Shown piece by piece: positions 312 through 62,313 of a stretch of 64,000 bases of DNA (its first letter is position 1; each line of letters starts with the position of its first letter). The DNA comes from Eledone cirrhosa (Eukaryota). The translations under genes and the position numbers were made by a program. The stretch is taken from assembly GCA_964016885.1 (NCBI GenBank), contig OZ024741.1:214706001-214770000 (forward strand), in the 5' to 3' direction. The notes beneath the pieces were generated by a model. That model saw only the letters and a program-made list of their open reading frames with translations, made no database searches and was not told the origin of the DNA.

Positions 312-1675
312 TAGTGAAAGAATGAAGAGTAACATTGTTGGTTGTACAACAAGGGGCTTTATTTCAGGTATTAACAATTGTTTCATTGATCAGGTGAGTC
401 TAGAGACCGCTAATCGCTCGAAGTTGCGTCACTCGATCTCCATTACATTGTTTACCTCTGATCAAATCCTCAGAATACAAAAATATGTCATACATGGCAG
501 GATATATATATAGAAAAATTACAAATATAAAGAAATAAGGATAAGTGAGAGCATATAAGTACAGAATATGATAGTGGTGGTGGTGAGTAAGTGTACGTTT
601 AAGGATTCTGTGGTGGATTTAGTGGTAACATGAAAAGTCATATTCGAAACATACATAGCTACGTGTAGTGACAGATAAAAGAAAAAGCAATAAATTAGAG
701 ATTAATTGGGAGATACTAGTATGAGATCCAAGGGCTAAGGGTGGATGGTGAAGGGAGGTTTGACAAATGTGTGTGGTAAATGTTTTGCTGATTGTCTTGT
801 CTTAATGGGGTTGATGCGGTTTCAGGGAGAGAGGGTGAAAGAGATGTTAAGAGATTTATGATCTAGTGACCAGATGGCCGCTTGACAGCTAATAGCGGTG
901 GGATGGTGTGTATTCCATACGTTAAAATCCAGGTGGTTCAGTTCTAATTTTGGGATTGCTGGTTGGAATCACGGTGGTTTGAAATTTGTGAACTTGGTAG
1001 CTATTTTATGCCTACAGAAAATTAATCTCTAATTTATTGCTTTTTCTTTTTTCTTTTATCTGTCACTACCTCAGACTCTCTAGACGTATCTATGTATGTT
1101 TCGAATATGACTTTTTCATGTTAGCACTAAACCCACCACAGACTTCTTATACGAACACTTACTCACCACCACCACTATCATATTCTGTACTTATATGCTC
1201 TCACTTATCCTTGTTTCTTTATATTTCTAATATTTTTCCATTTTCTTACTTTTTTACTGTCTTTTTACATCTGTAACTTCTCTACCTATTTATTATATAT
1301 TCTTTATTATTGATGTTATTGTTTTGATTATACGCTATTTTTCTATATATATAGCTTGCCTTGAGTGAATTGTTTTTGTAATGGAGATCGAATGAAGTAA
1401 CTTCGAGCGATTAGCGGCCTCTAAACTCACCTGATCAATGAAACAATTGTTAATACTTGAAATAAAGCCCCTTGTTGTACAGCCAACCATGTTACTCTTC
1501 ATTCTTTAACTATTATTACTCCAAGTATAACCTGCAGAGGAATTACGGCGAACTCGCTGCCTAACTATGGAAACATCTTGTTGAGTTAAACAAAGCCGTA
1601 CGTTAAAACTATCCACGACGCAGAGTACTCACAACCTCTAACTGGATTACCTATAACGATAACTTGTTACCCCAT
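312..1675. mobile_element. Non-autonomous PLE-terminus foldback element (family A) between (TA)n tracts
   Basis: 322-447 is the reverse complement of 1378-1503, and 512-708 of 1020-1237; related copy at 11549-11788. Confidence 0.8.
368..478 (-). ncRNA. Type I hammerhead ribozyme motif with extended helix II
   Basis: Minus strand: gtatt CTGAGGA tttgatcag-(64 nt)-ctgatcaat GAAAC aatt GTT aatac; helices I, II and III all pair. Confidence 0.8.
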
Positions 1676-2110
1676 ATATATATATATATATATATATATA
1701 TATATATATATATATATATATATATATATATATATATATATATATATATATGAGAAGAATGGGGTGCTGCGTGGTTGCACATGGGTTACATATGAATAAA
1801 ATTAGCCCTTCATCAGTGATTTTCTAACTTTGATTGGTATTTCATCGTTTTAAAAATCATATATCTCTAGTTGGTTCGAGCAATAGCTAAATAAACCTAT
1901 TGGCACAAGTAATATAGAGTGAAGCGAGCGAATTAGGGCCTATTATTTTAATGAAAATATTGTATTGTTACTATTTATTACTTTTATTAATTTTATTGTT
2001 ATACATACTTGATGTCTCTCTCTCAATATATATAAATAAATATATATATATATATATATATATATATATATATATATATATATATATATATATATATATA
2101 TATATATATA

Positions 2111-2271
2111 GGAACAAGTAAGACCCCGACGGCTGAGCTCAAGCCGTTTCGACGGCTAATTCTGACAGAATTAGCCGTCTTACTTGTTCCTATTACCCAC
2201 TCTACTACCCTAAGTATTGAGTACTTTGGTGCGTTATGGTCCACCTGGTTCCTTACCACATTTTCTTCGTT
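2111..2271. mobile_element. Miniature foldback derivative of the PLE at 8260-11533 (family B)
   Basis: Left part matches 8260-8310, right part matches 11450-11531; GGAACAAGTAAGAC...GTCTTACTTGTTCC inverted; flanked by (TA)n. Confidence 0.8.
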
Positions 2272-2599
2272 ATATATATATATATATATATATATGTGTG
2301 TGTGTGTGAATGTGTGTGTGTGTATCCAGTTACTGGGGTATTCATATATACACACACGTGTGTGTGTGTTTATCCCTACCCCAGTGTTAAAAATTAAACA
2401 CATCACCGTTTTTCGTATCGTTTATTTTTTTTAAATATTTTTATTTTTATTTATGTCAGTCGGGTCATTGTTCCCACAATGCATCTCGTCCTTCAAGTCT
2501 CATATCTCCTCTTCCCACCTCTACTTCCTTAACTCTCTTTCTCTCTCTCTCTCACTCTGTCTCTCACTCTCTCACTCTTTCTCTCCCTCCTTTGTTCAA

Positions 2600-58898: not shown

Positions 58899-59222
58899 GT
58901 CCAAGGGGCAATCCGTCGTGTTGACTATGTATTGAAGAACGAATAAATATTCTAAAGAGGTTACGCAATAGCGATTTCCTAAACTCAAGTTATGAATTCT
59001 TCACACGTTTCCACACGTCTGGAAGCACCTCTTACATAACTACAAAGTTCCGGATTGAATTACAAAATCCTAATTTTCTTTTCAACTAGAAACTTTCGGC
59101 TTTTGCAGTTATCTCCCTTACACCTCTCGCACGCAATTTAGTATTGCCTGAGAGAATTGACCGTTTCTGCGCATGCGCGTTCGTGCGGTTTTACTTCCTG
59201 TTCCGTATAGCCATGTCCATTA

Positions 59223-59260
59223 CGAGCTGAGGATCCGCTAAGGTGAAACAATTGTTCTCG
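59223..59260 (+). ncRNA. Minimal hammerhead motif (family P)
   Basis: cgag CTGAGGA tcc gctaa ggt GAAAC aatt GTT ctcg. Confidence 0.78.
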
Positions 59261-59997
59261 GTATGGTGAACTAACTGTTGTGTAACCACTTCTATATATA
59301 TACATTTATATATATATATGCATTTATATATATATATATGTATCCCAAATCAGATATTATTTGCATCTATATATGTATACATGCATAAACCTCGTTATGC
59401 ATATGTACGTATGGACAAGAGGGCAGTTGAGTGCTTCCTTTTAGTGCGAATTCCTTTGTTTGAATTCAGCCACTACAGCACGTTTTAATCTACGATGAAT
59501 TCTTCCTCTTTTCATTAGAGGCAGAGTGTGGGAATGCCGTGAACTTCTAGATAGTTTATCCAGTAATAATGGCTAACAAACACTGCACGGACCTATCTTA
59601 TGACATGGGCAACTCTGCTGAAGACGTGTTTAATATCCCCAGATATCGCGTGATTTTCTGAACATTGTGGATGTAATATCTGCAATTGTGAAGTTATATT
59701 AGACAGAAACGATATCATCCAGGAGATGAGATATTTACTTGTATCTCTACCAAAAACACAGCCACCGTATCTGCTATTAACTGAATGTGTTCACTCTAAA
59801 CAGCTGATTGCAGCTGCATTACTGCAATTCGGCAGATTCATTGAGTGTTGCTACTCGGAGAACGTTGTAGTTGAATTAATGCCAGCGATTTTTGTTACTT
59901 TTATTATATATATATATATATATATATATATATATATATATATATATATATATATATATATATATATATATATATATATATATATATATATATATAT

Positions 59998-62313
59998 GTG
60001 ATTGAAAAACCGTTATTTTAAACGCTATGGAAAGTTTAGATATATTAGTAGGAGAGAAAGAAAGAAAAAATAAAAGGAAAAAGAAACAGAAGACCACTTA
60101 TATACGTTAATTTGGAGGAAAATGTTTTTTTTTAATATTTACCTATATCATGTATATATTTATATAGAGAATTATGTTTGTAAGTATTTATCTTATTACA
60201 ATATTGTAGTGGGTTAAATATATAAATATCAATATATATTTTAATAAAGAGATAATTTGCAATTATTAGTTGTTTATAATATGATTTACGAGTGAAGTTG
60301 ATTTTGTGTTTTATGTCTATAAATAAATAAATAGATAGTTCAAGTTTTAGGTGGTTGCTTATAATATGAGTTACGATGGAGGTTGATTTTGTATTTTATT
60401 TAAATAAATAAATAGGTAGTTAAAATTATGGATTTATATATTTGAATATCTTGTTCGGCTTTGAGAATGTTTTAATTTAACGGAGTTACGTATATAATAA
60501 TGTAATAAGTTTATATGATTGAGAAAGGAAAGATAACTCCAATTTTGTTTGTTAATCGATACATTTTAAGAGTTAGTGTGAGATTAATTAATTATTTAGT
60601 CGAAAGAAGTGCGAATGTTTAAAAATCGTCTTGAATAGGATACATTTTTCTCATGTCAGTTAATGGTTATTAATCTACGTTTAAAAATAGCTTTAGAGGG
60701 TATCATTGGAAAAATATAATGTAAGAATTAAAGAATTAAAAAATTAAAATTAAAATTAACATTATATATAGATATACATAAATATATATAAATATCTATA
60801 CACATACATATATATAAATATATATATATATATTAAAAGAAACTTTTGCTGAAACGTTAAAGTACTACAAATATTAGCCGTATTACCATTTAGAAATATT
60901 AATATATTAAAATATTAACAATTTAAATTGTTAAAGATAGGATCATTTTATTAATCTCAGGACAGAATTTATTTTCTTCTTGCAATCATCGACAAAATTC
61001 TACATTCAGAACTATGTGTAATTTATAATATTCCTATAAATCTTCAAAATGATCCTATTTTCTGTAACAATTTAAATTTTTAATATTTTAATATATTAAT
61101 ATTTCTAAATGTTAATATGTCTAATATTTGTAGTACTTTCACCTTTCAGCAATCATTTATTTTAATATATATAGTGTGTATAGATATTTATATATATTTA
61201 TGTATATCTATATATAATGTTAATTTTAATTTTAACTTTTTAATTCTTTAATTCTTACATTATATTTTTCCAATGATACCCTCTAAAGCTATTTTTAAAT
61301 GTAGATTAATAACCATTAACTGACATGAGAAAAATGTATCCTATTCAAGACGATTTTTAAACATGCACACTTCTTTCGACGAAATAATTAATTAATCTCA
61401 CACTAACTCTTAAAATTTATCGATTAACAAACAAAATTGGAGTTATCTTTCCTTTCTCAATCATATAAACTTATTACATTATTATATACGTAACTCCGTT
61501 AAATTAAATTAAAACATTCTCAAAGCCGAACAAGATATTCAGATATATAAATTCATAATTTTAACTACCTATTTATTTATTTACATAAAATACAAAGTCA
61601 ACCTCCATCGTAACTCATATTATAAACAACCACCTAAAACTTGAACTACCTATTTATTTATTTATAGACATAAAACACAATATCAACTTCCCTCGTAACT
61701 AATATTATAAACAACTAATAATTGCAAATTATCTCTTTATTAAAATATATATATAGATATTTATATATTTAACCCACTACAATAGTGTAATAAGATAAAT
61801 ACTTACAAACATAATTCTCCATATAAATATAAAAATAATATAGATAAATATTTAAAAAAAAAATTTTTTCCTCCAAATTAACGTATATAAGTGGTCTTCT
61901 GTTTCTTTTTCCTTTTTCTTTTTCTTTCTTTCTCTCCTACTAATATATCTAAACTTTCCATAGCGTTTAAAATAACGGTTTTTCAATCATATAGCTCAAC
62001 CTCATTTACATATTCATTTGCATACTAATCCTAACAATTTTGAAATATCCGTTCTTTAAATTCACTATCCAAGGAAAATTCAACTGATAAGGTATGTTTC
62101 CTTGGCTATGTCAAAATTTATAAAACACACTTTGTATTTTATCTGATGAAAGAGTACCAAAGTTTTTGGTACTCTTGAAATATATATAATAGAATAAATA
62201 TGGTTTTATAAATATAGTTTCCATTTATTTAATATCATTGAATATTTACTCCAGAAACTGTCGAGTGCTCTGATCAGTTATAAACATTTATATTTGTTGA
62301 ATTTCCAACAAAT
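59998..62313. mobile_element. Large foldback element with about 950-bp inverted arms (family Q)
   Basis: 59999-60945 inverted at about 61030-61989; right arm continues 320 nt through a hammerhead to (TA)n. Confidence 0.85.
62135..62196 (+). ncRNA. Type I hammerhead motif
   Basis: tattttat CTGATGA aagagtaccaaa gtt tttggtactctt GAAAT atat ATA atagaata. Confidence 0.9.

What the first reader, a model, noticed from the sequence alone, without database searches (positions are those of the whole stretch)
312..62313. Shared two-ended foldback architecture across many (TA)n-inserted hammerhead elements
Seen: at least nine families with little or no mutual similarity (312-1675, 2111-2271, 6559-7300, 7675-7961, 7984-8230, 23510-24055, 31037-31437, 32161-32548, 59998-62313) have two inverted arms whose 3' ends both face outward into microsatellite. 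One arm stops at an internal TAT/TATA that the other arm reads through. Examples: family B ttcc|tata versus ttccTATtaccc; C catttg|tata versus catttgTATtacac; I ttcct|tata versus ttcctTATActtt; F ctgtga|tata versus ctgtgaTATcat; O aacaa|tata versus aacaaTATttg. Independent copies reuse the same two stop points. Established: PLEs form inverted or partial-tandem pLTRs with a 3' tail and carry hammerheads. Inference: both strands of a cut (TA)n prime reverse transcription by pairing with UA motifs in the RNA, one internally and one terminally, and the two cDNAs are joined. This would be a microsatellite-colonising ribozyme element system.
Basis: partly seen in the sequence, partly recalled or inferred. 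Interest (0 to 1): 0.85.

Follow-up and report, generated by a model that had tools for sequence, protein, structure and literature searches.

The report
Penelope insertions primed from both strands
These lopsided mirror-image inserts in TA repeats are the ends of a known kind of jumping gene (Hydra-clade Penelope-like elements), and their two outer ends stop at two different fixed points, each just before a small conserved stem motif, which likely means that both cut DNA strands start copying the element's RNA, a testable answer to how such elements integrate.

Summary
The architecture is real and genome-wide. In nine families, 238 of 256 sampled arms end at one of two fixed points, 195 of those 238 in (TA)n (background 7-10%). 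In family B, 91% of 26,209 arms fall into the two classes about 1:1, and 44 of 44 head-to-head pairs have one end of each kind. They are not a new element system. B, A, F and the 60-kb family are 3' ends of Hydra-clade Penelope-like elements, and C is a non-coding tandem derivative. Inverted arms, a one-sided tail and (TA)n targeting are published. Both stops overlap a short TA motif (15 of 17 sites), and most lie 6-9 nt before an RCUC...GAGY stem (14 of 17), which also occurs twice in a distant relative from a marine metagenome. Three of four read-through predictions found nothing, two families lack the stem, and no RNA or biochemical data were available. I found no paper describing the coupling or the twin signal. 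The scan reached the same reading earlier on other DNA of this genome.

The parts
312..1673 (.). Family A foldback: left arm ends at inner stop I (about 314), right arm reads through I (about 1510) to outer stop T (1673); 3' end of a Hydra-clade PLE
   Evidence: ORF upstream in L362-L364
368..480 (-). Type I hammerhead with long stem II in the left arm of A (read by eye; missed by my scans because the first stem II pair is a mismatch)
   Evidence: sequence
2111..2270 (.). Family B minimal foldback: I arm 2111-2164 (3' half of hammerhead only), T arm 2177-2270
2199..2222 (+). RCUC...GAGY stem signal 8 nt after the B inner start site
4808..5047 (.). Short family C foldback
5062..5166 (.). B-related short T arm plus I arm
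6560..7301 (.). Family C foldback; the family also forms head-to-tail units of about 490-500 nt with no Hydra ORF seen upstream (retrozyme-like); 26-nt templated insert at the junction (6979-7004)
7240..7265 (+). Stem signal (G-C version) after the C inner start site
7676..7959 (.). Family F foldback: T arm left, I arm right; 3' end of a Hydra-clade PLE
7726..7750 (-). Stem signal after the F inner start site
7985..8229 (.). Family I foldback; no stem signal and no full hammerhead found; weak ORF link only (L366)
8260..11530 (-). Near full-length, frameshifted Hydra-clade PLE of family B: long I arm with ORF (frames at 9273-10562 and 10716-11417) plus a short inverted T arm 11431-11530; about 83% identical to the intact genomic monomer
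11547..11786 (.). Diverged family A pair inserted beside the PLE
23510..24053 (.). Family E23 foldback with hammerhead in both arms (by eye); stem signal 23961-24000; no ORF link found
31037..31436 (.). Family E31 ('O') foldback; no stem signal; second copy at 56831-57294
32161..32548 (.). Family E32 foldback, homologous to F; stem signal 32478-32502; right flank is (CA)n
57300..59291 (+). Second broken Hydra-clade PLE (family P2) ending at its I stop; hammerhead near 59225-59265 (by eye); a short copy of the same end at 31442-31525
59998..62313 (.). Family E60 2-kb foldback of a long PLE 3' UTR; left arm ends at an atypical site
62135..62196 (+). Type I hammerhead of E60, followed by inner start site and stem signal (62248-62266)

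Best explanation
These are insertions of Hydra-clade Penelope-like retroelements and their non-coding derivatives, each made of two head-to-head arms ending at two different fixed sites, and they likely arise because both strands of a cut (TA)n target prime reverse transcription, one at each of two internal signals on the element's RNA. SHOWN: the template is tandem and runs 3' UTR, hammerhead, site I, tail of about 45-165 nt, site T, then the next ORF start. Most sites are a 3-5 nt UA motif followed 6-9 nt later by an RCUC...GAGY stem. Paired arms are almost always one I and one T, share subfamily variants, and are truncated at their 5' ends with variable junctions. INFERRED: the GIY-YIG domain cuts both strands in (TA)n; two protein copies bind the two stems of most likely one RNA; each DNA 3' end pairs with the UA motif and is extended; the T-primed cDNA displaces the I-primed cDNA where they overlap; the two cDNA ends are joined by end-joining repair. 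Short foldbacks would be run-offs at an RNA 5' end, and long arms and tandem arrays would come from uncleaved tandem or circular RNA. No role for hammerhead cleavage is shown.
For: Two-class ends: 12,243 of 26,209 B arms stop at I and 11,706 read through it. Coupling: 44 of 44 B pairs and 110 of 131 pairs over nine families are I/T; two multi-monomer arrays with both ends seen also end I/T. T is internal and TA-bearing in 5 of 5 families where read-through was seen. Overlap with (TA)n is 3 nt or more at 15 of 17 sites against 0.20 background. The signal pattern hits the intact 3.53-kb monomer's sense strand exactly twice, at I and T (0.21 expected). It is present in three window families not used to derive it, at the predicted T site of F, and twice before the ORF of a metagenomic relative at 37% protein identity, two further contigs of which leave the element just before the second stem. 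The I arm is longer than the T arm's overlap in 9 of 34 short B pairs and in 6 of 12 long ones, up to about 14 kb. Arms differ at 2 of 52 polymorphic sites in B against 0.57 between copies. In vitro, a Poseidon PLE extends both DNA strands from two internal RNA sites that bound the tail (PMC11167929).
Against: All evidence is from genomic copies; no empty target site was seen. Predicted read-through with the stem was not found for I, E32 or E23 (1 chance match, 0, 0). Families I and E31 lack the stem, and A's inner site has only a degenerate one. The stem is only four base pairs, and tails of the signal-bearing families do not fold better than shuffles (z from -1.9 to +0.4). The sites are homologous, so the 15 of 17 and the A-U/G-C swap rest on few independent events. 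10 of 131 pairs were called T/T or I/I; three of the four in C run on in tandem to an I end, but true T/T pairs exist (L196, L198, L356). In older families arms differ at 17-37% of polymorphic sites, so some two-template events are possible. In the Poseidon assay, initiation needed no RNA-DNA homology.
Confidence: 0.68

Rival explanations
1. Single priming at T, then self-priming: the cDNA folds back and copies itself, and the endonuclease resolves or joins the product at site I, recognising the stem as DNA. This resembles the self-priming and EN-resolution ideas in PMC3846280 and PMC8557442.
For: It explains the strict I/T asymmetry, shared variants and near-equal arm lengths in 21 of 34 short B pairs. 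It is the published reading of junction palindromes and of the tail.
Against: The I arm cannot exceed the T arm under fold-back, yet it does in 9 of 34 short and 6 of 12 long insertions, including 3.2 kb against 100 nt in the window and about 14 kb against 280 nt. Many T arms start inside the tail with no overlap (joints). These would all need later deletions. I and T carry the same signal with the same polarity and spacing, as expected of two start sites.
Confidence: 0.14
2. Dual priming from two separate RNA molecules of the same source locus, held in an asymmetric complex in which one subunit uses I and the other T.
For: Overlapping arms need no strand displacement. Arms differ at polymorphic sites more than at other sites in older families, and 5 of 44 B pairs differ in variant. 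Occasional T/T pairs occur. Dual priming is proposed for L1 (PMC2837659).
Against: Two equivalent RNAs give no simple reason for 44 of 44 I/T pairs. Four of the five discordant B pairs differ by one base, compatible with later mutation.
Confidence: 0.14
3. The families are DNA foldback elements or MITEs with fixed terminal inverted repeats that move as whole units.
For: Many short B copies have similar size and ends, and three family I copies share one junction.
Against: Junctions differ from copy to copy. The identical-junction I copies are segmental duplications. Of 255 TA-bounded blocks with a terminal inverted repeat, 241 are staggered and 14 flush (loci enriched for these families). The arms are 3' ends of RT-GIY-YIG ORFs.
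Confidence: 0.02

Closest known systems
Hydra clade of C-terminal EN+ Penelope-like elements (Craig et al. 2021, PMC8557442; seen: abstract, passages, sections 11 and 15, supplement rows)
   Same: Single ORF with RT and C-terminal GIY-YIG; RWK-type, DKT, CxCx5C, CxxC and CxH motifs; hammerhead in the 3' region; (TA)n targets; an octopus family (Hydra-1_Obim) and an inverted 5'-truncated copy (Penelope-13_HM) are listed in the supplement.
   Different: The parts I read give no strict one-I/one-T coupling, no UA overlap and no twin stem signal. The intact monomer here is 3.5 kb (paper: generally under 3 kb) and tails are about 45-165 nt rather than 30-40. I did not compare sequences with Hydra-1_Obim.
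PAc, Poseidon PLE of Anolis, in vitro (Frangieh et al. 2024, PMC11167929; seen: parts 1-2 of 4 incl. main text, not supplements)
   Same: Two internal RT start sites bounding the tail; both DNA strands cut and extended; AT-rich target; tandem template; hammerhead cleavage not needed; dimer predicted.
   Different: There initiation is in an AC-rich stem-loop without homology to the DNA and shows no strand difference, and inverted insertions are not explained. Here both sites overlap (TA)n and are used one per end.
Inverted pLTR with optional tail, Adineta vaga Penelope elements (Arkhipova et al. 2013, PMC3846280; seen: passages)
   Same: Head-to-head inverted terminal copies, tail on one of them, palindromic junctions.
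   Different: Explained there by self-priming; those elements have TSDs, which cannot be read in (TA)n.
L1 twin priming and dual priming (PMC2837659; seen: passages)
   Same: Second DNA strand primes internally on the RNA and gives an inverted cDNA joined to the first.
   Different: In L1 it is an occasional event at variable sites, with a poly(A) primer site and an internal deletion. Here it looks like the usual route, at two fixed signals, with overlapping arms.
Non-LTR retrozymes (PMC7229834, passages; bioRxiv 10.64898/2026.07.22.740005, part 1 of 5)
   Same: Non-coding tandem repeats with type I hammerheads, proposed PLE derivatives; family C and a 257-nt B tandem (L370) resemble them.
   Different: The C hammerhead core is changed, its monomer is about 490-500 nt, circular RNA was not tested, and most of the nine families are truncated ends of coding elements rather than retrozymes.

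Membership tests
EN+ Penelope-like element | Single ORF with RT and GIY-YIG endonuclease | tested here: met
   Intact 717-aa ORF in L420; Atlas neighbours carry RVT_1, GIY-YIG and HTH_animal; Pfam scan itself gave no hit. ORF link shown for B, A, F, E60, P2; weak for I; none for C, E23, E31, E32
EN+ Penelope-like element | Tandem or partial-tandem and inverted pLTR arrangement with one-sided tail | tested here: met
   3.53-kb head-to-tail arrays and inverted arms; tail on one arm
EN+ Penelope-like element | Hammerhead ribozyme motif in the pLTR | tested here: inconclusive
   Clear in E60 by scan; A, E23, F, E32, P2 by eye; B with a U3-A8 swap (variant name recalled); changed core in C; not found in I; doubtful in E31; no Rfam hit; cleavage not tested
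Hydra clade | RWK and DKT motifs, CxCx5C linker, CxxC and CxH around the conserved E and N, C-terminal EN | tested here: met
   RWR, DKT, C-N-C-x5-C, CNLC and CKH in the B ORF, conserved in 92 aligned relatives; same motifs in F parent fragments; definitions
Hydra clade | Insertion into (TA)n | tested here: met
   195 of 238 ends vs 7-10% background
Hydra clade | RT phylogeny grouping with named Hydra families | not tested
   No tree built; the best protein hits are unnamed
Non-LTR retrozyme (family C) | Non-coding tandem repeat with type I hammerhead in each unit | tested here: inconclusive
   Tandem units of about 490-500 nt with no Hydra ORF upstream, but the core has a U4-to-A change
Non-LTR retrozyme (family C) | Expression as self-cleaving circular RNA | not testable with these tools
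   The one run search (family B query) listed no RNA holder
MITE / DNA foldback element | Fixed terminal inverted repeats flush with both ends, unit copied whole | tested here: not met
   Staggered arms and copy-specific junctions
MITE / DNA foldback element | Target-site duplication | not testable with these tools
   Unreadable inside (TA)n without empty sites; one search showed no empty allele

The most novel reading that the evidence does not exclude
Hydra-clade PLEs integrate by programmed twin priming. The RNA carries two copies of a compact start signal (UA alignment motif plus RCUC/GAGY stem); a protein dimer binds both and primes one cDNA from each strand of a double-strand cut in (TA)n. 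The second strand is then made by a second reverse transcription rather than by copying the first cDNA, which would explain in one scheme the inverted pLTR, the one-sided tail, the microsatellite bias and trans-mobilisation of retrozyme-like repeats.
Probability: 0.55. Interest if true: 0.75.

Novelty: new variant of a known kind. Interest (0 to 1): 0.6.

Why it matters
Craig et al. 2021 name the formation of inverted and tandem PLE structures and their microsatellite bias as open problems, and the only in vitro study leaves the steps after first extension unvalidated. This genome offers tens of thousands of junctions that obey one rule, a short candidate RNA signal that can be mutated, and an intact ORF in arrays with 99.8-100% identical monomers, so the question becomes directly testable. 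PLE reverse transcriptases are the closest relatives of telomerase, so an alignment motif set by an adjacent stem would be of wider interest. The element class and the overall shape are already known.

Tried and rejected
Rfam scan: no family at gathering score. Pfam: no hit for any PLE frame, even the intact ORF. Run search: no RNA holder listed, so expression, RNA 5' ends and circular forms are untested. Contigs laid on 1760-2480 showed no empty allele. Read-through predictions for I, E32 and E23 found nothing usable; my patterns may have missed the consensus, or such tandems may be absent. Single-sequence folding gave no significant stability for the signal-bearing tails. The cross-family alignment of signal regions was not used for a covariation count, because rows were selected by the motif and three were misaligned. 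A genome-wide count of family B arms ending exactly at the outer stop was not obtained; T ends rest on sampled loci. A paired-end genome pattern could not be run, so pairing was counted from listed places and loci. Whole-unit (MITE-like) spread of a family I foldback was rejected as segmental duplication. My first idea that the palindrome in the tails is an RNA dimerisation loop was dropped in favour of the stem reading and not tested. Five of eight metagenomic loci were short 3' matches with no clear twin signal. Paper searches that found no description of PLE twin priming or of the twin stem; subscription papers, Repbase notes and the supplements of PMC11167929 were not seen and may bear on novelty.
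Full report
Setting. The window is G000:C2:214706001-214770000 of a 3.0-Gb genome. I take it for an octopus from its SINE-like repeats (recalled, not tested). 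It is rich in (TA)n. Names: A 312-1673, B 2111-2270, C 6560-7301, F 7676-7959, I 7985-8229, E23 23510-24053, E31 31037-31436, E32 32161-32548, E60 59998-62313. I is also used for the inner stop and T for the outer stop.

Observation in the window. A masked self-comparison finds inverted arms in all nine regions, and end alignments show one arm stopping where the other reads on. Exceptions: E60's left arm stops at an atypical site, E31's left arm is 4 nt short, and E32's right flank is (CA)n. Rfam found no hammerhead. My scans found one in E60 and a changed one in C. The others were read by eye, with none in family I and a doubtful one in E31.

Genome-wide test. Exact patterns just upstream of the inner stop gave 26,209 matches for B, 271 A, 422 C, 60 E60, 538 F, 1,084 I, 18 E23, 2,502 E31 and 303 E32. 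For B, 12,243 arms pass straight into (TA)3 at I and 11,706 read through it, 91% together. I used the first 100 listed untailed places and 93 of the first 100 tailed ones (7 beyond the end of the other list dropped). All 44 head-to-head pairs within 4 kb were one of each, and 39 of 44 shared the subfamily variant against 0.41 expected. Across 318 position-ordered loci reduced to 256 insertions, 238 anchor arms ended at I or T. Of 131 with a partner arm, 110 were I/T, 6 T/T, 4 I/I and 11 involved another end. (TA)4 followed 195 of the 238 ends, background 7-10%. A motif-free pass over 1,160 TA-bounded blocks in all fetched DNA found 241 staggered and 14 flush terminal inverted repeats (the DNA is enriched for these families). 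Junctions are copy-specific, with small inserts or 1-5 nt overlaps.

What the elements are. 8260-11530 has family B ends around a broken ORF whose Atlas neighbours carry RT and GIY-YIG families. An intact 717-aa version lies in head-to-tail arrays of 3.53-kb monomers that are 99.8-100% identical. It has the motifs that define the Hydra clade in PMC8557442 section 11, a clade reported to target (TA)n and to include an octopus family. Related ORFs lie upstream of A and E60 ends and follow F read-throughs; the link is weak for I. None was found for C, E23, E31 or E32, though E32 is homologous to F. C forms tandem units without a Hydra ORF.

The outer stop is internal. B copies read on past T into the element's 5' region (309 matches), and so do single A and E60 copies and many C copies. 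In each the next bases are a TA motif. Overlap between template and (TA)n is at least 3 nt at 15 of 17 sites, background 0.20; the misses are E60 I and P2 I. The sites are homologous, so the nominal P value overstates the case.

A shared signal. Comparing these read-throughs showed RCTC, a 7-32 nt loop and GAGY, starting mostly 6-9 nt after each stop (12-17 nt where the TA motif is long). In one copy per site, 11 of 17 sites had it, and all 11 were complementary although mismatched forms were allowed; background 0.7%. Window copies add C I, E23 I and E32 I, giving 14 of 17. A I is degenerate, and I and E31 lack it. The pattern hits the intact B monomer's sense strand only at I and T; B helped define it. 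Out of sample: three other window families have it. A prediction for F's T site gave 10 matches, 9 with one shared continuation (two are one locus), and the partner half, not in the query, was present in 6 of the 9. The same prediction failed for I, E32 and E23. A marine metagenome contig with a 37% identical protein has hammerhead, signal, tail, signal, ATG in that order, and two more contigs of that element leave it just before the second stem. Thermodynamic folding does not single out the stem.

Mechanism. Two start sites bounding the tail and extension of both DNA strands are shown in vitro for a Poseidon PLE. The data here add that the two sites are used one per end. One RNA has one I and one T, so twin priming on one molecule gives this directly, and the arms' shared variants agree (B 2 of 52 against 0.57; older families 0.17-0.37 and family I 0.07, against 0.36-0.53). 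Fold-back copying cannot make an I arm longer than the T arm without later deletion, yet this is seen in 9 of 34 short B pairs and in 6 of 12 long insertions that I picked from the lists. Cutting, protein dimer, pairing, displacement and joining are all inferred. Odds: double priming on most likely one RNA 0.68, fold-back with endonuclease resolution 0.14, two RNAs 0.14, DNA element 0.02.

Known versus new. Inverted pLTRs, the one-sided tail, hammerheads, (TA)n targeting and non-autonomous derivatives are published, and twin and dual priming are known for L1. In eight searches I found no account of obligate I/T coupling, UA overlap or the twin stem in PLEs; papers outside the library and unseen supplements may hold it. 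Earlier notes of this scan describe similar elements and, in this genome, the same double priming and twin hairpin. I had recorded the signal; they are unchecked notes, not independent support. Verdict: a real feature, a new mechanistic variant of a known kind, interest 0.6.

Noticed in passing
family B, A, F, I, E32 loci (L031-L348): Arm 5' ends pile up at a fixed distance: B 50-62 nt upstream of I, inside hammerhead loop II; A -95..-104, F -110..-124, I -76..-80, E32 -113..-121 from the search anchor. Possibly run-off at a transcript start; an Inr-like motif at the B site is recalled, not tested.
   Followed up: partly
L419-L421, L423-L428 (G000:C1:91.47-91.49 Mb, C1:437.19-437.21 Mb, C2:320.55-320.56 Mb): Arrays of several 3.53-kb monomers, 99.8-100% identical, two with an open ORF: recent activity and a tandem or circular template.
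   Followed up: partly
L424:2171-5742: A 55-nt piece of the ORF is repeated about 65 times between a tandem array and its inverted arm, as if by repeated template slippage.
   Followed up: no
L354:857-3151; L355:2346-2978: A LINE-type RT ORF (RTE-like, label recalled) sits between the two arms of an F and of an I foldback: later insertion or capture at the junction.
   Followed up: no
L370:1014-1668: Three tandem 257-nt units joining the B element's 5' region to the 3' half of its hammerhead; a non-coding derivative keeping both signals.
   Followed up: partly
L356:2688-2720; window about 1605-1630: The long tail of family A holds a third RCUC/GAGY stem at which no regular stop was seen.
   Followed up: no
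L039, L314: Runs of 15-18 T/A at the junction between arms.
   Followed up: no
window 37115-37185, 39795-39915, 41126-41196, 40002-40460: Further hammerhead-bearing or foldback families with the same two-stop ends; two carry the stem signal.
   Followed up: partly
window 4329-8260: Elements of different families are stacked in each other's TA flanks, so one microsatellite collects many insertions.
   Followed up: no
window 63227-63502 and 55197-56076: Flush inverted duplications of a SINE-like piece and of TA-rich DNA, without a tail.
   Followed up: no
window 12496-13959, 27978-29087, 44127-47039, 18432-18881: Fragments of other LINE-type RT ORFs and a mariner-like transposase (labels recalled).
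   Followed up: no
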